A stretch of 64,000 bases of DNA from Candidatus Hodarchaeota archaeon (GTDB lineage: Archaea; Asgardarchaeota; Lokiarchaeia; Sigyniarchaeales; SOKP01): positions 79,115 through 143,114 of the forward strand of contig JBHLKM010000011.1 in the NCBI GenBank assembly GCA_048886685.1, read 5' to 3'. Each line of letters starts with the position of its first letter. Position 1 is the first letter of the stretch. Positions 3,244-46,336 of this stretch are shown here, one piece after another. A program made the translations under genes and the position numbers. A model generated the notes under the pieces. That model was not told where the DNA came from. It ran no database searches and saw only the letters and a list, made by a program, of their open reading frames with translations.

Positions 3244-5037
3244 ATGGTTAATGTAAATGGAGCCCAGTTAGTTGTTCGCGCTTTGGATAATCAAGGTGTT
3301 AGAGTTTTGTTTACTCTCTGTGGAGACAATCGTATAATATATCATTATTGTCAGGATTCCTCATGTACTGAGAAAGGAATAGACATTATTGACTTTCGTC
3401 ATGAACAAGCAACAGGTCATGCTGCTATGGGATATTTTCTTTCTACAGGGGAAGTTGGTGTATGTTCGGTTCAATCAGGTCCGGGAATAACAGATCTATT
3501 CCCTTCAATTCCAATAGCTTTTGATGCTAGTATTCCTCTTGTAGCTATTTGCACAAGTACAGCTTTAATGGATTTTGAAAAATTAGCTCAAAATGAAATC
3601 GATGTTGTGCCTTCCTTTCGACCTGTAACAAAATGGAGTGGATACTGTTATGAAACTGCTCGAATTCCAGAGTATATTAACATGGCTTTTAGAATAGCCA
3701 CTACTGGTCGACCTGGTCCAGTCCTTTTACTTATTCCTTTTGATATCCTAGTAAAAGAATGTGATGCTGAGTTGGATATAGTTCAATATGCATTTAAGCC
3801 TGTAGAGAAGCTACGGTCGTTTTATGGCCCATATGGTAATGAACATCTGATAAGGAAAGCAATTGATTTACTTTTGAAGGCAAAAAATCCATTAATAATA
3901 GCAGGTACTGGAGCAGCTTTTTCAGATGCTTCATTAGAATTACTTAAATTTGCTGAATTGACACAAATTCCTGTTGGATCTTGGGGTTTTGGCTTAGGGG
4001 AATTTCCAGCTGATCATCCTTTATTTTTCGGACTTGCAAGTCCTTTAGATGGTCCAGGAACAGCCTTACTCCAAAAGGTTGATGTAGCATTGATACTGGG
4101 TTCAAGAATTACCGAGTTAATGAATTATGGATATATGCCTTATTTTTCGGATGATGCAAATCTTATTCAAGTGGATATTAAAGCTGAAGAAATTGGTAGA
4201 AATCGAGCAATAGATATACCTATTGTAGGGGATGTTAAAGGTGTTCTTACTCAATTCATCAAAATTAGTAGTGAAAAATTGAAAAATCCTAGAACTGAGA
4301 CACAATGGGTCAAAATAGTTCAAGACTATTTGAAAAAATTTGAAATGCGTCTTGAGAAAGATGGATCTTCAGATAAGATTCCAATTCTGCCCCAGCGCCT
4401 TGTAAAGGAAGTTCGGGATTTTATGCCTGAGGATGGAATAATTATTTTAGATGGGGGAGATACGACAGTTTGGGGGCTTACCTACTTAAGAGGTCGTTCA
4501 CCTAAATCACTCTACTTTTCTGGGGGATTGGGAATTCAACATCTTGGTGGTGGTGTTCCCATGGCTATTGCTACTAAATATGTAAATCCTGATAAGAAAA
4601 TTCTAGTCTTAACCGGAGATGGATCGTTTTTATTTAATGGAAAAGAAATAGAAACTGCCCGAAGGTTTGATTTACCTTTTGTAGTGGTGATAAGTAATGA
4701 TAGGCTGTGGGGAATGGTAGCTAGAGGCCAAAAAATGTCTCACGGCAAAAAATTTTTTGGTTTAGGAAGTTCTTTAAGTAGTGATACCAGATATGATAAA
4801 TATGCAGAAGCTTTTAATTGTTATGGGGAATTAGTGACGGATCCCAAGGAAATTCGTCCTGCATTACAACGGGCTTTTGGTTCGAATCTTCCTGCAGTAA
4901 TCGATGTAAGAATAAATCCTAAAGTAAATACGGTAATGAACTATCTAGCTAAAGAAAGCTATAATCCAGATAGTTGGGAACGTAAAGTTAAAAAAAAAAT
5001 CGAAGAAGTCATTGAAATAGCACCAGTTAAAAAGTAA
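3244..5037 (+). CDS. Thiamine-diphosphate-dependent enzyme (acetolactate synthase / 2-hydroxyacyl-CoA lyase family)
   Basis: RHEQ catalytic Glu, SGPG, GRPGPV and GDGS...ND ThDP-binding motif. Confidence 0.9.
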   Translation: MVNVNGAQLVVRALDNQGVRVLFTLCGDNRIIYHYCQDSSCTEKGIDIIDFRHEQATGHAAMGYFLSTGEVGVCSVQSGPGITDLFPSIPIAFDASIPLVAICTSTALMDFEKLAQNEIDVVPSFRPVTKWSGYCYETARIPEYINMAFRIATTGRPGPVLLLIPFDILVKECDAELDIVQYAFKPVEKLRSFYGPYGNEHLIRKAIDLLLKAKNPLIIAGTGAAFSDASLELLKFAELTQIPVGSWGFGLGEFPADHPLFFGLASPLDGPGTALLQKVDVALILGSRITELMNYGYMPYFSDDANLIQVDIKAEEIGRNRAIDIPIVGDVKGVLTQFIKISSEKLKNPRTETQWVKIVQDYLKKFEMRLEKDGSSDKIPILPQRLVKEVRDFMPEDGIIILDGGDTTVWGLTYLRGRSPKSLYFSGGLGIQHLGGGVPMAIATKYVNPDKKILVLTGDGSFLFNGKEIETARRFDLPFVVVISNDRLWGMVARGQKMSHGKKFFGLGSSLSSDTRYDKYAEAFNCYGELVTDPKEIRPALQRAFGSNLPAVIDVRINPKVNTVMNYLAKESYNPDSWERKVKKKIEEVIEIAPVKK

Positions 5038-6836: not shown

Positions 6837-7955
6837 TTGCTAAAAAGTGAAGTTATCAAAAAAGCATTAGAGTCAGGTTTTGAAGATATTGGGTTTACAA
6901 CCATGGAACCCTTTGAGTCTCAAAAAGAGATTTTAGATTCTAGAAAAGAAGAATATGGATGGACTTTAAAAAAAGGTATTGAACTCATAAAAGGTTTAGA
7001 TCCTAGAAATATATTGCATAATGGTAAATCTATTATAGTTTTGATTGATGTTTATTTTAAGGAAGCTTATCCATCTTCTTTAGAAGGTCATTTTGGTCGT
7101 TGTTATCTAGATGATGATCGAATTACCAGAGGTCAGTTATACCAGCGCATCAAATCATTCCGAAGTTACTTACGAGATAATGGGATTGATTCCAGAGCAC
7201 CATTTAATATTCCACATCGATTAACAGCTGCGAGAGCGGGATTGGGCACTTTTGGAAAGAATAATTTTCTCTATTCAAATAGAATTGCTCGAAAAAGTTC
7301 TTGGATATCTCCCATACCCTTAATAGTCGATTATGAATTCGAGCCTGATGAGCCTTCAATAGAAGTTGGGTGCCCAAAATGGTGTAAAAATACTTGTATT
7401 GCTTCTTGTCCCACTGGTGCTCTCAGAGCTCCAAACAACATTGATCCTCGAAAATGTATATCTTATCTCAGTTATTATCAAGAAGGAATAACTCCTTTAG
7501 AGATTCGGGAGCAGATGGGTACCTGGGTGTATGGATGTGACCGATGTCAGGAGGTATGTCCTCGTAATAGAATGTGGTTATCACAAGATTTACCTCCTAA
7601 TGAAAGAGTGATAGCTAAAATGAATGATTTTGATTTATCTAACTTACTTCATATGGATCAAAAAACTTATCAAACAAAAATTTGGCCACATATGTTCTAT
7701 ATGTCCTTTGAAGAAATATGGCGTTGGAAAATGAACGTTGCAAGAGCTATGGGAAACACACTTGATCCTAAATATATTCCTGATTTAATTAGAGCTTTCG
7801 AAGAAAACGAAGACAAGAGGATAAAAGGTATGATTGCCTGGGCTTTGGGACGAATAGGAGGAAAAGAATCTAGAAATGCTTTAGAACGCTTTAGAAGCAA
7901 TAATAACGGTTCAGTTAAAAACGAAATTGAACTTGCTTTAAGGGATTTAGCTTAA
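6837..7955 (+). CDS. Epoxyqueuosine reductase (QueG)-like cobalamin/2x[4Fe-4S] protein with C-terminal HEAT repeats
   Basis: AARAGLGTFGKN, C...C..CIASCPTGAL, CISYLS, YGCDRCQEVCPRN, NVARAMGN, AWALGRIGG. Confidence 0.85.
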   Translation: MLKSEVIKKALESGFEDIGFTTMEPFESQKEILDSRKEEYGWTLKKGIELIKGLDPRNILHNGKSIIVLIDVYFKEAYPSSLEGHFGRCYLDDDRITRGQLYQRIKSFRSYLRDNGIDSRAPFNIPHRLTAARAGLGTFGKNNFLYSNRIARKSSWISPIPLIVDYEFEPDEPSIEVGCPKWCKNTCIASCPTGALRAPNNIDPRKCISYLSYYQEGITPLEIREQMGTWVYGCDRCQEVCPRNRMWLSQDLPPNERVIAKMNDFDLSNLLHMDQKTYQTKIWPHMFYMSFEEIWRWKMNVARAMGNTLDPKYIPDLIRAFEENEDKRIKGMIAWALGRIGGKESRNALERFRSNNNGSVKNEIELALRDLA

Positions 7956-34194: not shown

Positions 34195-36957
34195 ATGACT
34201 GAATCTAACAAAGAGATAGCAGGTAAGGGTATCAAGAGTACAGCATCAATAGAAACCCTTAAAAAAGTAAATATTGCTGCTAACTATTGCTATAATTGTA
34301 ACCGATGTAATAATGTTTGCCCAACCGCTTTTCTCGACACTTTTTACCCTCGCAGCTTAATTACAGATTTAACTTTCTTAACACCAGAGGAAGCTTTAGA
34401 AAATAATGACATATGGAAATGCTTAACATGCGGATTGTGTTCAGTATATTGTCCAATGACAAAGGAAGAGATCGGAGTTAATTTTACCAAAATTATCAAA
34501 GATCTGCGTACCTTGGCATCCGAATATGAACCATTAAAAGAGACTTTATTGAGTTGTAATCATGAGAGAGCATATTCAAGTTTACCAAAATTGATGGCGG
34601 ATGATAAAATCAAATTTACCAATAGAACTGGATTTTTAGAAGGGAAAGGATTAAAAACTACAGATAAAGGAGAAATTGGGTACTTTATGGGATGTGTACC
34701 TTTCCTAACAGGTATCGCACCTTGTGTTGTAGGATGCCCTGCAGGAGTTGATGTTCAAGGATACATATCATTAATCTCAGAAGGTAAATTTCAGGAATCC
34801 ATCGATTTAATAAGAGATAAAAATCCCCTTCCCTACTTATGCGGAAGAATTTGTACTGCACAATGTGCATTAAACTGTAATCGTCAATATTTTGATGATC
34901 CCGTCGCAATTAGGGAACTTAAAAGATTTGTTTCTGATTGGGAAGCGGAAAATCCTAATCAAGGTAAAATAAAACCAGTACCACAAACAAAAGAAAAAGT
35001 TGCTATTATTGGAGCGGGACCAGGTGGATTATCAGCCGCCTATTTTCTCGCAAGAATGGGGTATAAACCAACTATTTTCGAGAAAGGTGATAAAACTGGA
35101 GGTGTGGTTAGATATGGAGTTCCTCAGTACAGGCTTTCTGATGAAGCACTTGATCACGATGTCGATTTTATAAAAAGTATAGGTGTAGAAGTTGTTTTAA
35201 ACAAAGAATTCGGCCCTAATTTTACATTGGAAGATATCTGGAAAGAGGGTTATAAGGCAGTTTTTATAGCTGTAGGACTATATATCCCAAAAACTCTCAA
35301 ACTTGAGGGTGAAGATTTACCCCATGTAGATGTAGCACTTGATTTCCTTTTAGAGAGAAAATATAAATGTTCAGAAAATCCTGAAGAATTTAAAGGTAAA
35401 ACTTTTGGGATAATTGGTGGAGGAGCTGTTGCTGTTGATGTAGGTGAAACTGCTGTTCGTCTAGGAGCAACCAAAGTTGATCTTGTTGATATCTTAACCG
35501 AAGAAGCTCTAAAAAATGTGTTTAAAGATTTGCACGAAGCTGAGAGGCAGGTAATGGAATACCATTTTGAAACGTCCACGGCAAAAATTACCCTAGAACC
35601 TAACGGTAAATTAGCTCTAAATTGCTATAAAATAGAATGGGGTGACCCTGATCCTGAAACAGGGAGAAGACCTTTAAATAAAATTGAAGATTCAGAATTC
35701 AAAATCATAGTCGATAACATTGTTATAGCAATTGGACAGGGGCTTGATCCAGAACCACTTAATGCTGCTACGGATAATCAGTTGAAAATTGAACGAGGCA
35801 AAATTGTAGTTGATGATTTAACATATGAAACTGGAATTCCGGGTGTTTTTGCTGGAGGGGATATTATTTATAATTCTTTAATGTGCGCTGTTGATGCTAT
35901 TGGAGATGGTAGAGAAGCAGCATTCACTATTGATCGCTATCTCCGAGGAATTGATTTAAAAGAAGGAAGAATAAGAAAGGATGACTTGAAAAGATCTGCT
36001 ATTCCAAAAAAATATATACTAACACAAGCATGTCAAGAAATGAACTTTATGCCCAGTTCCGAAAGATTGGTTTGTTTTGATGAGATGGAATTAGGATTTT
36101 CCGAGGAACAAGCGAAAAAAGAGGCTAATCGTTGTTTAAATTGTAATTGTTGCTGTAATCCTGACCAAATCCCGGAAGATTTTGAAAAAGCACTTGACGA
36201 TTCTGGAGTTATGATATGTGATTATGGAAGTCAAGATAATTGGCGATCTTTGAATGCTCCTGATTACTTAGAAATTCCTAAGAGAGTTATTGGTATTTTA
36301 AACCAAAATGATATTTTTCCGGTTGTATTACCTGAAGAAAAATGCTGTGGTCATGATAGTCTCTGGCGAGGAGATCTTGAAACCTTCAAGACATTAGCAG
36401 AGTACAATGTTAAATTATTTAAAAACGCCGGAGTTAAGACTTTGATCTTTAATTGCGCTGAAGGATATTACACTTGGAAAAATGAATATAAGGACCTCTT
36501 TAAGGGTACTGACGAATTTGACTTTGACGTTTATCATATATCTGAATATATCTTGAAAGAAAAACTTTTAGAAGATGTATCATATCCAAGTTTAGACAAA
36601 ATTAAAGTTACTTACCATGATCCGTGCAGACTTGGAAGAATGAGTAAGGTTTTTGATGCTCCACGTGAGGTATTGAAACTAATCCCTTTTGTTAAATTGG
36701 TTGAAATGGAAGATAATATGGAAAATGCCGAATGCTGTGGAGTATCTGCTTATATTTCTTGCGATCAGGATTCAAAAAAGCTTCAAAAGAAAAAAATCTC
36801 TCAAGCAATTGAAACAGGAGCAGAATACCTCATTACCGCATGTCCCAAATGTATTGCACATTTAAATTGTTATTTAAATGAAAACAGAGAATTAAGGAAT
36901 AAAATAAAGGTAATTGATCTTGTTAGCTTCATAGGGAGTCTACTCTTTTTGGTGTGA
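34195..36957 (+). CDS. HdrD-like (HdrC-type Fe-S plus two CCG domains) oxidoreductase with an inserted NfnB/GltD-type FAD module
   Basis: CYNCNRCNNVCP, CLTCGLCSVYCP; YFMGC...CCGH; PCVVGCPAG, CGRIC..C..NC.R, GAGPGG, GGGAVAVD, FAGGD; YHDPC.LGR, CCG, ACPKC. Confidence 0.9.
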   Translation: MTESNKEIAGKGIKSTASIETLKKVNIAANYCYNCNRCNNVCPTAFLDTFYPRSLITDLTFLTPEEALENNDIWKCLTCGLCSVYCPMTKEEIGVNFTKIIKDLRTLASEYEPLKETLLSCNHERAYSSLPKLMADDKIKFTNRTGFLEGKGLKTTDKGEIGYFMGCVPFLTGIAPCVVGCPAGVDVQGYISLISEGKFQESIDLIRDKNPLPYLCGRICTAQCALNCNRQYFDDPVAIRELKRFVSDWEAENPNQGKIKPVPQTKEKVAIIGAGPGGLSAAYFLARMGYKPTIFEKGDKTGGVVRYGVPQYRLSDEALDHDVDFIKSIGVEVVLNKEFGPNFTLEDIWKEGYKAVFIAVGLYIPKTLKLEGEDLPHVDVALDFLLERKYKCSENPEEFKGKTFGIIGGGAVAVDVGETAVRLGATKVDLVDILTEEALKNVFKDLHEAERQVMEYHFETSTAKITLEPNGKLALNCYKIEWGDPDPETGRRPLNKIEDSEFKIIVDNIVIAIGQGLDPEPLNAATDNQLKIERGKIVVDDLTYETGIPGVFAGGDIIYNSLMCAVDAIGDGREAAFTIDRYLRGIDLKEGRIRKDDLKRSAIPKKYILTQACQEMNFMPSSERLVCFDEMELGFSEEQAKKEANRCLNCNCCCNPDQIPEDFEKALDDSGVMICDYGSQDNWRSLNAPDYLEIPKRVIGILNQNDIFPVVLPEEKCCGHDSLWRGDLETFKTLAEYNVKLFKNAGVKTLIFNCAEGYYTWKNEYKDLFKGTDEFDFDVYHISEYILKEKLLEDVSYPSLDKIKVTYHDPCRLGRMSKVFDAPREVLKLIPFVKLVEMEDNMENAECCGVSAYISCDQDSKKLQKKKISQAIETGAEYLITACPKCIAHLNCYLNENRELRNKIKVIDLVSFIGSLLFLV

Positions 36958-37133
36958 TATAGATTTCTCATTTTTTAATATATTTTTAGTTTAACTAATT
37001 GTTTTATTCTGTTCATCTAGCTTTACGCATTTTAAAGAGAGTGTTTTTCAGAGTTAACAAGTAACCTTTAAAATTTTGATAATTTATTCTTAATAACTAC
37101 ATTCAAATCATAATTTAAAAACAAAATATAATA

Positions 37134-41382: not shown

Positions 41383-42012
41383 TTAGATTTCATCAGAATG
41401 TTTTAAAATAGATATTACTTTATTAGGATCACTTGCATTTAAAATTGTGCTGGCACTACTTAATATTTCAACGTCTAATTTCTTTGCGTTATTAATGTTA
41501 ATTCCCCCATCAACTTCAATAAGAAAATTATATTTTGCTTTATACATTTTTAAATTGTTTACTTTCTCTATTGAATAAGGTATGAATTTCTGCCCAGATT
41601 CACCGGGATATACAGACATAACCAATACCAAATCAATTGAATTTAGATATGGTACAATTTCAACTATGTCTGTATCTGGATTTATTGCTATACCTACTTT
41701 TTTTTTCTTTTCTCTAATTTTATTGATTATTTCATCTTTATCTTGTTCGATCTCAAAATGGAAAGTAAATATTTGGATATATTCAATAATCTCTTCGATA
41801 TAATCAGAGGGATTAGTTACCATCATGTGTGAGATAATGGGTATTTGGTAAGTTTCGTTTAAAATACGAAAAACATCTAGATTTAGGTTTCTCACGGGAG
41901 TAAATTTCCCGTCTGATACATCAACATGTATATAATCAAGCCCATTTAAACCAAGAATAATATCTGGTTTCAAATCGTCTCTTGCGTGTATTGATACTGC
42001 AATTTTTTTCAT
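41383..42012 (-). CDS. rpe: Ribulose-phosphate 3-epimerase
   Basis: [45 protein letters not shown]. Confidence 0.92.
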
Positions 42013-42373
42013 ATCTATATCGAGTGTAAATATCTTTTTTTTTTATACTTTAGGATAGTAGTATCACAAAAAATATTAAAATACAAAATCTCTTGTTTTT
42101 TATAATTGAAGCGACATTTTTTTTTATAGAAATTTTAGAAATCAATAATCTCCAACTGAAACTTTTATCGAAATTCGTCATTTTTAACTAAATAAGTGAT
42201 ATTAAAAAAGAAACATCAATTAAATAATCAGATATTAGAAGAATTGAATTAAAGTTTCATAATAATTTAATTTTAATAATATAGACAATTTACTTTATCA
42301 TAATTTATTTCTTAGCTAACTAAGAAATTAGAAAAAGAAAAGCCTTAGAAAATTAGGAGGTTAAGTTAACCAA

Positions 42374-42379
42374 AGGTGA
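42374..42379 (+). promoter_or_regulatory. Ribosome-binding site of hdrA
   Basis: AGGTGA ending 5 nt before TTG 42385. Confidence 0.7.
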
Positions 42380-42384
42380 ACATA

Positions 42385-44367
42385 TTGTCTGATAAACAGA
42401 CCACTAGTAATAGTAATGAAGACGAAGTTCAGCCTAGAATAGGTGTGTTCGTGTGCCACTGAGGGATTAACATCGCAGGTATATTAGATATCCCGAGAAT
42501 AGTCGAAGAAATAAATAAAATTGAAAATGTTTGGGCTTATCCATATCTTTCCTTATGTACTGAAGGAGGATCTACTGAAATCAAAGAGAAACATGAAGAA
42601 TTTAAATTCAATAGAATATTAATTGCAGCATGTACACCTAAGACTCATCAGCCCGTATTCCATGCTATATTAAAAGAGATGGGATTACCTCCAAGATATT
42701 TGGAATTCGTAAATATACGAGAACACTGTTCATTTGTACATCAAGCCCCAGAAGTTCGTGAAAAAGCTACATTAAAAGCAATCGAGCTAATTAAAGCAGG
42801 TATTGCCCGAGCGAGATTATTAGAAGATGTACCTACAAAAACAGTTCCCGTAGAACCTAGTGCTCTTGTAGTTGGTGGAGGAATTGCAGGATTATCGGCT
42901 GCTATCGATTTGGGTGATGCTGGATATAAAGTATATTTGGTTGAGAAGAATACAACGATCGGAGGTCGTATGTCTCAGCTCGACAGGACTTTTCCTACGG
43001 ATGATTGTTCAATATGAATCTTGGGACCAAAAATGCTTGAAGCCAACCGTCATCCAAACATTGAAATCTTATCATACAGTGAAGTTTCAGAAATTGACGG
43101 TTACATTGGTAACTTTAAAGTTAAAGTAAGAAGAAAAGCTCGATTCGTTGATGAAACAAAATGCACCGGTTGTGGAACATGTACAGATGTATGCCCGGTG
43201 TATACAAGTAATTACTTTGATGAGCATTTATCTGCCCGGAAGGTCATTGATATCGCTTTTGCTCAAGCAGTCCCAGCAGTATCGCAACTTGAAAGAGATG
43301 TATGCGTAGAATGCTTTGCATGTGTTGATGCATGTGAACAAGAAGCCATAGACTTTAGTCAGCAAGACAAAATTGTAGAACTAGATATAGGCACTATAGT
43401 TGTAGCGACTGGTTGGGACCTTTATAAGGGTGAAGATTATGGTTATGGGATTTATGATAATGTAATCAATCAGATAGAATTAGAAAGGATTCTTGCACCT
43501 AACGGTCCTACTTATGGACACTTAAAGCGCCCTTCCGATGGTAAGCGTCCTACAAAAATTCTATTCATCAACTGCGTTGGTTCGAGAGATGTTAATAAAA
43601 ATGCTCATTGTAGCGTTATCTGTTGTAATCTTTCACTTAAAAACTCGAAATTAATTAAATCTGAATACCCTGACTCACAAATCGTTTGTACATATATAGA
43701 CATGAGATGTGCTGGAAAAGACTATGAAGAATACTATAGAAGATCAAGAGATGCAGGAATAATTTTTGTAAAAGGATTAGTTGGAAAAATAGAAGAAGAT
43801 CATTTAACAAAAAACCTTAAAGTACAATTTGAGCCAGTAGGAACTGATAGTGTAGTTACTATGGAGGTCCATATGGTTGTATTATCACCAGCATCTCTCC
43901 CCTCTGAAGGTACATTACAAATAGCTAAAGTTCTAAATATGGAAAAAAGCCCTGATGGTTTCTTAAAGGAATATCATGCTAGACTTGACCCAATAAGTAC
44001 TAAAGTACCAGGAATCTATATTTGTGGATCAGCCCAAGGACAAAAAGAGATTGACAAAGCAGTAAGCCAAGCTAGAGGAGCAGCATCAGTAGCAGGTATT
44101 CCGATGGGTAGAGGGGAATATACAATGGAATTAATTCGAGCTACACCCTCAGATGAGCGTTGTGCTAAGTGTTATAAATGTATCGAAGCTTGTCCATATA
44201 GCGCTATTTCGGTAAATGAAACGGGAAATATTGTCGTTGATTTAATAAATTGTCGAGGGTGTGGAACTTGTGCAGGTTTATGTCCTTCAAAAGCAATTGA
44301 ATTAACATACTTTAGAGACGATCAATATATGGCTTTAGTAGATGAATTATTACCCCTTGAGGAGTAA
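42385..44367 (+). CDS. hdrA: Heterodisulfide reductase subunit A, selenoprotein with two Sec (UGA at 42460-42462 and 43015-43017), 660 aa
   Basis: One continuous frame from TTG 42385: RIGVFVCH-U-GINIAG...AACTP..H...NIREHCSFVH...GGGIAG...RTFPTDDCSI-U-ILGPKM. Both UGAs sit at conserved HdrA Cys positions. Joins ORF-track pieces 42679-43017 and 43021-44367. Confidence 0.95.
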
Positions 44368-44383
44368 AGAGGTGAAGAATAAA

Positions 44384-44842
44384 ATGGCAGAAGATAATGA
44401 TATTAAAATTATTGTATATGCTTGCTGGAAATGAGGGTATGGTTCTGCGGATATGGCTGGTACGATCAGAGCGCAATATCCAGACTCAATTCGAAATGTC
44501 TTAGTACCTTGTACCGGACGTGTAGGAAGTGATTTAATCATGAGAGCTTTTGGTAGAGGAGCTGATGGCGTTGTTATTAATGCTTGATATCCTGGAGAAT
44601 GTGACTATGAAACGGGAAATTACCATGCATACCGACAAGTAGAATATATTAAAGAAATTCTAAAAGCTGTGGGTATGAGTCCAGAAAGAATTAAAATTAT
44701 ATATTGCACCGCAGCTGAAGGTCAGAAATTTCAAAGAGAAGCTATAGAAATCGATAAAACTATCAGCAAATTGGGACCAAGTCCTTTAAGGGCTAAAGGC
44801 ACACCTAAAAAAGGAAAAGCTAAAGCGAAAGCTCAAGCTTAA
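44384..44842 (+). CDS. mvhD: MvhD/VhuD [2Fe-2S] subunit, selenoprotein with two Sec (UGA at 44432-44434 and 44585-44587), 152 aa
   Basis: MAEDNDIKIIVYACWK-U-GYGSADMAGTIRAQYP...VPCTGRV...GADGVVINA-U-YPGECDYETGN...SPERI...CTAAEGQKF...LGPSPL; GAGGTGA RBS at 44369-44375; absent from the ORF track. Confidence 0.95.
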
Positions 44843-44850
44843 AAATTTAA

Positions 44851-44910
44851 TGTGTTTACTGATGAGGCTGAGTTAAAAAAATGAGAACTCATGCTGAAGA
44901 AATGGGCGCA
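44851..44910 (+). promoter_or_regulatory. Eukaryote-like SECIS element in the mvhD 3' UTR
   Basis: Lower stem UGUGUUUA/UGGGCGCA; core AUGA (44862-44865) opposite UGA (44895-44897); upper stem GC-UGAGUU/AACUCA-U-GC; apical loop starting with an A-run (44875-44881). Confidence 0.88.
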
Positions 44911-45037
44911 CCATGCAACACATAAAAAAAGATTTTAAAATTTAGAAGGAAATAGAAACATATAATCATTTGATTTGAAAATCAGTAAAAAAAAAGAAAT
45001 TATAATTATATATTTTGTATTTTAGAGTTGGAATTAC

Positions 45038-46177
45038 ATGGATACTACAGCAGAATACATAATTAAGAGTGAGGATTTTTCTAAAATCTTAGCTAGTTTG
45101 CTGAAAGAAAAAGTAGTTGATAAATTTATTGGTGCTGAATTGAGAGTTGATAAAAAATCTGGTAATATAGATAGATTTACTGTTCAACCAAAATTAGTGG
45201 AAAAAGAAGAAGATCTTTCAGATTTTCCATTATTTCCTTTAATTGCTTTTGGATATGCAAGGACTGACTCCGCATCAAAATTTCTCCATAAATCTGTAGC
45301 AGGTGCGATGAATGAGAAAGTTGGACTTATTGCACGTCCTTGCGATACGAGGGCATTAATTGAACTTGCTAAAATTAGACAAGTAAATCTGGATAATCTA
45401 TTTATTGTTGGGATCGAAGATAGAGGTATGCTTCCAAAAGCTGGTCGAGAAATGAGATCAATTAAGGATGTAGATCCAACTAAAATTGTTAAAGAAAAAG
45501 TTGGAGATAAAGGTCTCATTGTCAAATTGGATGATGGAAGCACAAAAGAACTTAATTTAACGGTTGCAGAAAACTGTTTAAGATGCTTCCGTAAGATTCC
45601 GGTTGTCGCTGATTTAACTGTAAGTGATCTCGGAATTCCCGTTGATTCAGAGGAGATAATTCTAAAAGTTTATTCAGATAAAGGAAATGAAATTCTTGAA
45701 AAGTCAGGAATTCAAAAGAAAGAACTCCCTGATAGCATCAAAACAGAGCATGAAAATACTTACAATCAAATAATAGAAAAAGCAAAAGAAAAAAGAGCAA
45801 AAGATTTAGAAGAATGGGATAAACTATCACAAGATGAAAAGATAGCAGAGTTACTTAAATGTACTCAATGTAACACCTGTATCAGGGGCTGTCCTGTTTG
45901 TTATTGTGTAGACTGTATACTTATGAAAAAGAGAAAAGAAAAAACCATAGATAAAGTAACTTATCAATTAACTCGAATAGCTCATGATGCTGATCGCTGC
46001 ATTGAATGCGGAAATTGTGATAATAACTGTCCACAAAATTTACCTCTTTCACTATACTTCCAGTCTCTTAATGAAGCCTTCAAAGAAAAATTTGGATATG
46101 AAGCAGGTATATCTCTTGATGATATCCCATTTAGGTCTGCAAAAGCAATAGCAGAGATGGAATTAGGGAAGATTTAA
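45038..46177 (+). CDS. FdhB/FrhB-like (coenzyme F420 hydrogenase/dehydrogenase beta family) protein with C-terminal [4Fe-4S] dicluster
   Basis: ARPCDTRALIELAKIRQVNLDNL, ENCLRC, ADL, CTQCNTCIRGCPVCYCVDC, RIAH..DRCIECGNCDNNCP. Confidence 0.85.
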   Translation: MDTTAEYIIKSEDFSKILASLLKEKVVDKFIGAELRVDKKSGNIDRFTVQPKLVEKEEDLSDFPLFPLIAFGYARTDSASKFLHKSVAGAMNEKVGLIARPCDTRALIELAKIRQVNLDNLFIVGIEDRGMLPKAGREMRSIKDVDPTKIVKEKVGDKGLIVKLDDGSTKELNLTVAENCLRCFRKIPVVADLTVSDLGIPVDSEEIILKVYSDKGNEILEKSGIQKKELPDSIKTEHENTYNQIIEKAKEKRAKDLEEWDKLSQDEKIAELLKCTQCNTCIRGCPVCYCVDCILMKKRKEKTIDKVTYQLTRIAHDADRCIECGNCDNNCPQNLPLSLYFQSLNEAFKEKFGYEAGISLDDIPFRSAKAIAEMELGKI

Positions 46178-46336
46178 ACATAATTTTTTTTATAATATTT
46201 ATTTTTCTTATCTTGTATGAGATTTCTAAGAGCTTATACTAAATCTGTGCAATAGAGTTGGGTTTCAATAAGATTAACTATTAATTTAAAAGATCTTTTA
46301 AACTTTTCAAGGGAAAACTTATTTATAAAGTAAGGT

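What the first reader, a model, noticed from the sequence alone, without database searches (positions are those of the whole stretch)
42385..44910. Four UGA-Sec codons in two cistrons apparently served by a single downstream SECIS
Seen: hdrA has UGA at 42460 (CH-U-G) and 43015 (CSI-U), and mvhD has UGA at 44432 (CWK-U) and 44585 (A-U-YPGEC), all at conserved Cys positions. The hdrA-mvhD gap is only 16 nt, and the only SECIS-like hairpin I could find begins 8 nt after the mvhD stop, about 2.4 kb from the first UGA. Known: HdrA and VhuD are selenoproteins in some archaea, and Lokiarchaeota use eukaryote-like 3' SECIS elements. Inference: one eukaryote-type SECIS recodes multiple UGAs across a cistron boundary on a polycistronic, SD-led mRNA. 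This would be a hybrid of prokaryotic operon logic and eukaryotic Sec insertion. Both genes end in UAA, consistent with avoiding UGA stops.
Basis: partly seen in the sequence, partly recalled or inferred. Interest (0 to 1): 0.85.

Follow-up and report, generated by a model that had tools for sequence, protein, structure and literature searches.

The report
Known shared SECIS for hdrA-mvhD
Two adjacent redox-enzyme genes of a Lokiarchaeal (Promethearchaeota) genome carry four selenocysteine UGA codons and have only one eukaryote-like insertion signal, placed after the second gene; this layout is real and conserved, but it was published in 2016 and has never been tested experimentally.

Summary
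hdrA (42385-44367) has in-frame TGA at 42460 and 43015. mvhD/vhuD (44384-44842) has TGA at 44432 and 44585. All four align with Cys, or with the known Sec site, of solved homologues. The gap between the genes is 16 nt. One SECIS lies at 44850-44923.

I found no second SECIS. Four tests agree: an ortholog-trained covariance model, a relaxed descriptor scan run on 41 related loci, Rfam, and a test for synonymous-site constraint downstream of each UGA. The genome carries tRNA-Sec, SepSecS, a PSTK-like gene, an EFSec-like gene and two Sec-containing selD genes. TGA is also an ordinary stop codon in this window.

The interpretation of one SECIS serving two cistrons is the best reading. However, it is already published: Mariotti et al. 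2016 (PMC4989117) describe exactly this, and Huang et al. 2024 (PMC11227280) generalise it. This locus is a further instance, so novelty is low.

This work adds three things:
- The SECIS is a covariation-supported three-helix structure. A small extra hairpin (loop usually GCA/GCG) is also present in the selD and vhuU SECIS elements. I did not find it described in the literature I could search.
- Two relatives with long hdrA-mvhD gaps carry one SECIS per gene.
- hdrA has a conserved, structured 5' leader.

Co-transcription and Sec insertion remain inferred.

The parts
42258..42295 (+). Nearly invariant AT-rich block upstream of hdrA. I read it as the promoter (TATA/BRE-like) and possibly an operator of the hdrA-mvhD transcript.
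   Evidence: Almost invariant in 27 orthologous loci while the flanks are unalignable. Unique in the genome: no copy with 4 or fewer mismatches, and one at 6. The function is inferred.
42307..42328 (+). 5'-leader hairpin (9 bp, 4-nt loop).
   Evidence: An inverted repeat sits at the same place in the orthologs with different, still complementary, arm sequences (by inspection).
42355..42379 (+). AGGAGG, then a small hairpin (42359-42371), then the SD AGGTGA (42374-42379), 5 nt before the TTG start.
   Evidence: Conserved blocks in the alignment. The start codon at 42385 is TTG, ATG or GTG at the same column in the orthologs.
42385..44367 (+). hdrA (heterodisulfide-reductase subunit A-like flavo-iron-sulfur protein), 660 aa. 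Sec codons at 42460-42462 (U26) and 43015-43017 (U211). TAA stop.
   Evidence: (670 bits to HdrA 9sfi_A; U211 aligns with X in that chain).
42387..42401 (+). Hairpin GUCUG-AUAAA-CAGAC directly after the start codon.
   Evidence: The arms are invariant in 27 orthologs. It accounts for the only window of significantly reduced synonymous variation in hdrA (aa 1-21: 0.235 against a mean of 0.628). Function unknown.
44368..44383 (+). 16-nt intercistronic gap holding the mvhD SD (AGAGGTGA). It is too short for a SECIS.
   Evidence: The gap is -2 to 19 nt in 39 of 40 related loci.
44384..44842 (+). mvhD/vhuD (FlpD family), 152 aa. Sec codons at 44432-44434 (U17) and 44585-44587 (U68). TAA stop.
   Evidence: PF02662, 2e-40; 2 TGA in the orthologs.
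44850..44923 (+). lokiSECIS, built from three helices. Helix I is 44850-56 paired with 44917-23. AUGA is at 44862-65. Helix II is 44866-74 paired with 44886-95. The loop is 44875-85. GA is at 44896-97. The side hairpin H3 is 44902-05 paired with 44911-14, with loop GCGCA.
   Evidence: Alignment A1 and RNAalifold. Model R1 scores it at 105.8 bits, E 3e-23. Covariation of helix II and H3 in 11 diverse SECIS elements. Helix I plus H3 found in 12 distinct lineages against shuffled flanks.
44933..44936 (+). Short T-run after the SECIS; a weak candidate for the transcript end.
   Evidence: Only T4, so read-through into the next gene is not excluded.
45038..46177 (+). FrhB/FdhB-like gene downstream. 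It probably has its own promoter (a TATA-like run about 25 nt before the ATG), so it is not part of the Sec unit.
   Evidence: Pfam FrhB_FdhB_C plus Fer4. Sequence at 45000-45040. The same junction is conserved in ortholog L076. Inferred.

Best explanation
This is the HdrA-VhuD (MvhD) selenoprotein gene pair of a Lokiarchaeal (Promethearchaeota) archaeon, in the arrangement already described for that group.

The two genes are transcribed together from a promoter in the conserved block near 42258-42295. Each cistron has its own Shine-Dalgarno site. A ribosome that reaches any of the four UGA codons receives Sec-tRNA(Sec) from the archaeal/eukaryal-type elongation factor EFSec. That factor is recruited by the single kink-turn SECIS just behind mvhD, which acts along the same mRNA over 277 to 2402 nt and across the cistron boundary.

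Shown here: the four UGAs lie at Cys/Sec positions. There is one conserved, covarying SECIS and no other. The Sec machinery genes are present. UGA is a normal stop elsewhere in the window.

Inferred: the single transcript, the SECIS-binding factor, and actual Sec insertion.
For: - Reading frames and Sec positions.
- SECIS conservation and structure.
- Only one match in the window with the full model and filters off (105.8 bits, against 16.4 for the next).
- One match per locus in 26 orthologs.
- A relaxed descriptor finds a recurrent element only 3' of mvhD in 41 loci.
- The same descriptor does find an extra SECIS in the two relatives where hdrA and mvhD lie 114 nt and about 700 nt apart. It therefore detects an hdrA-proximal SECIS when one exists.
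- An hdrA paralog in this genome with no mvhD behind it carries its own SECIS at its end.
- In this genome, all 4 Sec-type hdrA-mvhD pairs have a SECIS behind mvhD. No SECIS-like hairpin was found behind the 10 mvhD copies that lack the Sec codons.
- No synonymous constraint after any UGA.
- tRNA-Sec (63 bits) lies next to SepSecS (483 bits). An EFSec-like gene lies 4 kb away. A PSTK-like gene and two selD genes with TGA are also present.
- Ordinary TGA stops in the window.
- Published description of the same layout.
Against: - There are no transcript or protein data. Sec has been shown experimentally in archaea only for methanogens (PMC9622424).
- A broader covariance model trained on paralogous and distant SECIS elements failed to recover even the known element. 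That test therefore says nothing about a divergent second signal.
- A recoding signal of an unknown kind inside hdrA cannot be excluded by sequence alone.
- The terminator after the SECIS is weak (T4). The transcript could run on, which would make the SECIS intercistronic rather than 3'-terminal.
- If translation is tightly coupled to transcription, the first ribosome would reach UGA26 long before the SECIS is made. This timing problem is unresolved.
Confidence: 0.85

Rival explanations
1. hdrA has its own recoding signal of a kind that is not a lokiSECIS, for example a local structure or sequence context near each UGA as in bacteria. The 3' SECIS would then serve mvhD only.
For: The generic model R2 missed the positive control, so divergent elements could escape detection. 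One weak hairpin at 44601-44644 passes the relaxed descriptor.
Against: Synonymous variation in the 25 codons after U26 (0.70) and U211 (0.595) is not reduced against the gene mean of 0.628. The same holds for mvhD. No SECIS-like position recurs within hdrA across 41 loci, and the 44601 hairpin occurs in no ortholog. Relatives with long gaps, and the hdrA-only paralog, use an ordinary lokiSECIS for hdrA.
Confidence: 0.07
2. The hdrA UGAs are not read as Sec. The gene is either truncated or non-functional, or it is read through with Cys/Trp by near-cognate tRNAs.
For: There is no direct protein evidence for Sec in any Asgard archaeon.
Against: The full-length frame is conserved at 50-93% identity in more than 40 loci, and up to 94% in the 149 genomes of the class that were searched. 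TGA occurs only at four Cys columns. U211 is the Sec position of a solved methanogen HdrA. The complete Sec machinery is encoded.
Confidence: 0.03
3. Separate transcripts: mvhD is also, or only, expressed from a promoter inside the hdrA 3' end, and the SECIS belongs to that short mRNA.
For: Archaeal internal promoters are common and cannot be excluded in AT-rich sequence. There are no RNA data.
Against: A short mvhD mRNA would leave hdrA with no SECIS at all. Yet hdrA keeps 1-4 TGA codons in every locus examined. The gap of 10-19 nt with an SD is conserved. The only strongly conserved non-coding block lies upstream of hdrA.
Confidence: 0.05

Closest known systems
HdrA-VhuD tandem with one shared lokiSECIS in Lokiarchaeota (Mariotti et al. 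2016, PMC4989117; extended to Asgard archaea by Huang et al. 2024, PMC11227280)
   Same: The gene order, the very short gap and the Sec positions (a subset of the six published sites) all match. So does a single element behind VhuD with AUGA, a 9-bp stem, an 11-nt A-rich loop ending in AG, and GA.
   Different: Nothing essential differs; this is another genome's copy. I did not find three points in those papers' main texts: the enclosing helix I with a covarying side hairpin H3, the relatives with one SECIS per gene, and the conserved 5' leader.
Eukaryotic SECIS (type I), Rfam RF00031
   Same: It lies 3' of the coding region and acts at a distance of kilobases. It has the AUGA/GA kink-turn core, unpaired A's in the apical loop, and a basal helix with an internal loop.
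   Different: There is no match to the Rfam model even at E<=10. Helix II has 9 bp rather than about 12-15. An extra hairpin sits in the 3' strand of the internal loop. The element serves two cistrons on an SD-led mRNA. No SBP2 is known in these archaea (Mariotti 2016).
Euryarchaeal SECIS of Methanococcales/Methanopyrus (GAA_A bulge, G/C-rich upper stem); VhuD has two Sec codons served by one element
   Same: It sits in the 3' UTR, one element serves two UGAs in VhuD, and distance is not strictly limited (PMC9622424). The VhuD SECIS there also has an AUGA...GAC/AAC motif and an extra stem (Mariotti 2016).
   Different: According to Mariotti 2016, hdrA had its own SECIS outside Lokiarchaeota. 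The core structure is different, and sharing across cistrons has not been described there.
Vertebrate SELENOP mRNA (many UGAs, two SECIS)
   Same: Several UGAs are recoded by distal 3' elements over kilobase distances.
   Different: It is a single ORF with two SECIS elements in a eukaryotic monocistronic mRNA.

Membership tests
lokiSECIS (Mariotti 2016) | AUGA immediately 5' of the stem, and GA (rarely AA) immediately 3' of it | tested here: met
   AUGA at 44862-65 and GA at 44896-97. AUGA is invariant and GA nearly so (AA in one) in the 27 orthologs.
lokiSECIS (Mariotti 2016) | 9-bp stem and 11-nt apical loop; first five loop bases A-rich; last loop base G, preceded by A | tested here: met
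   The stem has 9 bp with one bulged U. The loop is AAAAAAAUGAG. Helix II covaries.
lokiSECIS (Mariotti 2016) | Located just downstream of the selenoprotein coding sequence; in HdrA-VhuD tandems, only one element, behind VhuD | tested here: met
   The element starts 8 nt after the mvhD stop. It is the only hit in the window and in each orthologous locus.
Eukaryotic SECIS (Rfam RF00031 SECIS_1) | Match to the family covariance model | tested here: not met
   No Rfam hit at the gathering threshold in the window. No SECIS family hit at E<=10 in 42000-46300.
Eukaryotic SECIS (Rfam RF00031 SECIS_1) | Binding by SBP2 and function in Sec insertion | not testable with these tools
   This needs biochemistry. 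Mariotti 2016 found no SBP2 in Lokiarchaeota.
Euryarchaeal SECIS | GAA_A internal bulge with three consecutive G/C pairs in the upper stem | tested here: not met
   By inspection of 44843-44940 and the fold, no such motif is present. H3 has a 4-bp AUGG/CCAU stem with no GAA_A bulge.
HdrA selenoprotein | Full-length homology to HdrA, with Sec at the DCxxU site | tested here: met
   670 bits to 9sfi_A over residues 16-656. U211 aligns with the non-standard residue X in that chain.
MvhD/VhuD (FlpD, PF02662) | Pfam domain, with Sec at two of the Cys positions conserved in solved homologues | tested here: met
   PF02662 at 2e-40. U17 and U68 align with Cys of 8rvu_F.
Sec-decoding organism (archaeal/eukaryal pathway) | tRNA-Sec, SepSecS and SelD/SPS | tested here: met
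   tRNA-Sec at 63 bits, above the cut-off. SepSecS at 483 bits. Two selD genes above the cut-off, each with one TGA.
Sec-decoding organism (archaeal/eukaryal pathway) | PSTK and EFSec | tested here: inconclusive
   The PSTK model matches over its full length but scores 136 bits, below the 290-bit cut-off. The bacterial selB model scores 237 bits against a 242-bit cut-off, for a gene 4 kb from tRNA-Sec and SepSecS. Both are likely genuine but fall below the curated thresholds.

The most novel reading that the evidence does not exclude
The Asgard SECIS is not a simple kink-turn hairpin. It is a three-helix junction whose third arm is a short hairpin (4-6 bp, loop usually GCA or GCG) between the GA of the core and the closing helix. 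This arm is a conserved and so far undescribed recognition element, perhaps the docking site of the still unknown archaeal SECIS-binding factor. In addition, the structured, conserved hdrA leader (including a hairpin on the first codons) may hold back translation until the distal SECIS has been transcribed.
Probability: 0.3. Interest if true: 0.55.

Novelty: already known. Interest (0 to 1): 0.3.

Why it matters
One 3' SECIS recoding UGAs in two cistrons of an SD-led mRNA combines operon organisation with eukaryote-style action at a distance. It bears on how the eukaryotic Sec system arose from an Asgard-like ancestor. This point was made in 2016 and the locus here only repeats it, so the value of this window is confirmatory.

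It remains an untested prediction, and this locus is a clean test case. It has four UGAs at 277, 430, 1847 and 2402 nt from the element. The same genome holds an hdrA-only paralog with its own SECIS. Relatives with one SECIS per gene serve as natural controls. The extra hairpin H3 is present in every SECIS type of this genome that I examined (hdrA-mvhD, hdrA alone, selD, vhuU). If it is confirmed as new, it would refine the model used to search for Asgard selenoproteins and for the missing SECIS-binding protein.

Tried and rejected
1. A generic covariance model (R2) was built from 11 paralogous and distant SECIS elements. It did not recover the window's own SECIS at E<=10. It therefore failed its positive control and was not used as evidence. 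Its top hit (7622-7687, 17.8 bits) lies inside an unrelated ORF and is taken as chance.

2. MAFFT could not align the window-type SECIS elements with the distant ones. Helix I and H3 were therefore parsed sequence by sequence in a script instead.

3. I tested for long-range pairing between the hdrA 5' leader and the SECIS region, which would have coupled initiation to completion of the transcript. RNAduplex z-scores ran from -1.9 to +1.5 over 27 orthologs, with no consistent partner region. Rejected.

4. I asked whether the conserved upstream block is a shared 'selenoprotein regulon' motif. No other close copy exists in the genome. Rejected.

5. Other ORFs in the window that contain TGA (34195-36978 and others) are ordinary TGA stops, not Sec genes.

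6. An apparent 1,226-aa fused HdrA in G005 is an artefact of masked bases.

7. I looked for a natural 'Sec-hdrA followed by Cys-only mvhD' case. None occurred among the 41 loci examined. I did not pursue this across all 149 genomes.
Full report
**What is there.** Read with TGA as U, the + strand gives two genes. HdrA is 660 aa (42385-44367), with U26 (TGA at 42460) and U211 (TGA at 43015). MvhD is 152 aa (44384-44842), with U17 (TGA at 44432) and U68 (TGA at 44585). Both end in TAA and they are 16 nt apart. Pfam gives Fer4 plus FAD/NAD domains for the first, and FlpD (PF02662, 2e-40) for the second. Against solved structures, HdrA scores 670 bits to chain 9sfi_A, and U211 falls on the non-standard residue X of that chain. 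U26, and U17/U68 of MvhD, fall on Cys. The start at 42385 is right: orthologs have TTG, ATG or GTG in that column behind a conserved AAGGTG.

**Organism and Sec machinery.** Close relatives of the locus are MAGs titled Promethearchaeota/Promethearchaeia, that is Lokiarchaeal. The window's genome (47 contigs, 4.4 Mb) holds the following:
- tRNA-Sec (63 bits, above the cut-off) directly beside SepSecS (483 bits).
- An EFSec-like GTPase 4 kb away (237 bits against a 242-bit cut-off of the bacterial selB model).
- A full-length PSTK-like gene that scores below the cut-off.
- Two tandem selD genes, each with one TGA.

TGA is also an ordinary stop in the window; genes end at 36955, 41380, 46339 and 54365. 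Recoding is therefore local, not a change of genetic code.

**The SECIS.** The 195-nt spacer behind mvhD begins with an element that is 83% identical per column in 27 orthologs, while the encoded proteins are 65-93% identical. RNAalifold gives these parts:
- A 7-bp helix I.
- AUGA.
- A 9-bp helix II, in which two pairs show compensatory changes.
- An 11-13-nt loop, AAAAAAAUGAG.
- GA.
- A small hairpin inside the 3' strand of the internal loop.

This matches the published lokiSECIS point for point: AUGA, a 9-bp stem, an 11-nt A-rich loop ending in AG, and GA. No Rfam family matches it, either at gathering thresholds or at E<=10. Mariotti et al. reported the same for the existing SECIS tools.

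**Is there a second SECIS?**
- A covariance model of the ortholog alignment (R1), run over the whole window with filters off, finds 44843-44937 at 105.8 bits (E 3e-23). Nothing else scores above 16.4 bits (E 0.6).
- R1 finds exactly one hit in each of 26 orthologous loci that include the full hdrA and 600 nt upstream.
- R1 is sequence-specific, so I also used a relaxed descriptor: NKGA, at least 7 bp, a loop of 7-16 nt with at least 3 A in its first six bases, GA/AA, and dG <= -4. In 41900-45100 it finds the known element (-6.9 kcal/mol) and one weak hairpin at 44601 (-4.0). That is close to the background density of 0.22 per kb per strand.
- Over 41 loci, the only recurrent position is 3' of mvhD. 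The 44601 hairpin is in no ortholog.
- The descriptor has a natural positive control. In L085 (G055), where the hdrA-mvhD gap is 114 nt, and in L131 (G042), where it is about 700 nt, it finds a complete extra SECIS right behind hdrA as well as one behind mvhD.
- An hdrA paralog in this genome with no mvhD behind it ends in its own SECIS.
- I tested for hidden RNA signals near the UGAs using synonymous-codon entropy in 27 orthologs. It is not reduced after U26 (0.70) or U211 (0.595) against 0.628 overall. It is not reduced after U17 (0.637) or U68 (0.692) against 0.584.
- A broader covariance model (R2) failed its positive control and is disregarded.

**Conservation of the layout.** In 40 related loci from the same genus, order and class, hdrA is always followed by mvhD on the same strand. 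The gap is -2 to 19 nt in 39 of them. Sec and Cys alternate at exactly six columns: HdrA 26, 58, 83 and 211, and MvhD 17 and 68. These are the 'up to six UGA' of the 2016 paper. One paralogous pair in this genome has all six. HdrA homologues with TGA codons were found across the 149 genomes of the class that were searched. hdrA never ends in TGA in the 41 loci. The downstream gene sometimes does, but only right at the SECIS, where the stop can even be the UGA of the AUGA core.

**Mechanism.** The best-supported reading is a bicistronic, SD-led mRNA whose single 3' kink-turn SECIS recruits EFSec with Sec-tRNA(Sec) for all four UGAs, over 277, 430, 1847 and 2402 nt.

Sequence-level support for one transcript:
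- The only strongly conserved non-coding block lies upstream of hdrA (42258-42295).
- The gap is too short for a promoter or a SECIS.
- There is only one T5 run inside hdrA.
- The next gene has its own TATA-like run about 25 nt before its ATG.

Logic also requires a single transcript: without read-through into mvhD, hdrA would have no SECIS. None of this is experimental. Sec has been demonstrated in archaea only in methanogens, where a 3' SECIS works over 88-679 nt (PMC9622424). One open problem is timing. With coupled transcription and translation, the first ribosome would meet UGA26 before the SECIS exists.

**Comparison with the literature.** Mariotti et al. [quoted passage not shown] Huang et al. 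[quoted passage not shown] The finding is therefore already known, and this locus is one more instance.

**What may be new.**

(a) The SECIS is a three-helix structure. Between the GA and the 3' strand of helix I sits a 4-6-bp hairpin (H3) whose loop is usually GCA or GCG.
- I found helix I plus H3 in 12 sequence-distinct SECIS lineages. Shuffled flanks reach the observed stem lengths in at most 1.35% of trials each. These 12 are the ones my parser handled. The others look the same by eye.
- On an alignment of 11 diverse elements, all 9 helix II pairs and all 4 H3 pairs show changes on both sides. 85% of cells are paired against 57% in shuffles. The covariation score is 0.888 against 0.311 (0 of 500 shuffles), and 0.13-0.24 for slid partners.
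- H3 is also present behind both selD genes and behind vhuU in this genome. It is therefore general and not linked to cistron sharing.
- I found no mention of it in the main texts of the 2016, 2024 or 2026 papers, in the held supplements of the 2024 paper, or by a full-text search. The 2016 supplements are not held. Huang et al. may have met some H3 hairpins as the 'eaSECIS-like structures downstream of eSECIS-like structures' that they dismiss. Another first-stage note on this genome (e1-5575303) also pointed out the side hairpin.

(b) Relatives with one SECIS per gene (G055, G042) look like the state from which the shared arrangement arose by loss of the intergenic element, as Mariotti et al. 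proposed.

(c) hdrA has an elaborate conserved leader. It consists of the invariant block, a covarying hairpin (42307-42328), AGGAGG, a small hairpin, the SD, and a hairpin GUCUG-AUAAA-CAGAC on codons 1-6. That last hairpin explains the only significant dip in synonymous variation. It does not pair with the SECIS region, and its block is unique in the genome. Its function is unknown.

**Verdict.** Interest is modest (0.3) and rests on the side observations and on the fact that the model is still untested.

Noticed in passing
44898-44916 (H3 at 44902-44914); also L094-L099, L077-L090 and own-genome C4:102269 onward: A side hairpin (4-6 bp, loop mostly GCA/GCG) lies between the GA of the SECIS core and the closing helix. 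It covaries and is present in the hdrA-mvhD, hdrA-only, selD and vhuU SECIS elements. I did not find it described in the papers I could read.
   Followed up: yes
L085:2128-2262 (G055:C167) and L131:2264-2309 plus 3347-3381 (G042:C209): Relatives in which hdrA and mvhD are 114 nt or about 700 nt apart carry two SECIS elements, one behind each gene. This is probably the ancestral state of the shared arrangement.
   Followed up: partly
42258-42401: The hdrA leader is conserved and structured. It has a nearly invariant 38-nt AT-rich block that is unique in the genome, a covarying hairpin, AGGAGG plus a small hairpin ahead of the real SD, and an invariant hairpin on the first codons that suppresses synonymous variation in aa 1-21.
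   Followed up: partly
own genome C2:318071-319993 (- strand; locus L097 covers its 3' end): An hdrA paralog with no mvhD behind it has four Sec codons. Two of them lie in ferredoxin-type Cys motifs (..KUP.., ..SVUIEC..). Its TGA stop is the UGA of its own SECIS AUGA core.
   Followed up: partly
L067/L038 (G022:C13), L082, L090: Some mvhD orthologs end in TGA a few nt before the SECIS. hdrA never ends in TGA in the 41 loci examined. This suggests that a UGA very close to the SECIS is read as stop.
   Followed up: no
own genome C1:219573-226340: SepSecS, tRNA-Sec and an EFSec-like gene lie within 7 kb of each other. Two Sec-containing selD genes sit in tandem on C13 (56676-59013), each with a type II-like SECIS.
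   Followed up: no
45038-46177: An FrhB/FdhB-like Fe-S flavoprotein gene follows the SECIS in conserved synteny. It has a TATA-like run about 25 nt before its ATG and no clear SD, so it is probably a leaderless transcript of its own.
   Followed up: no
7622-7687 (+): Best hit of the generic SECIS model R2 (17.8 bits, E about 0.007). It lies inside ORF 6837-7955 with no Sec gene nearby and is taken as chance.
   Followed up: no
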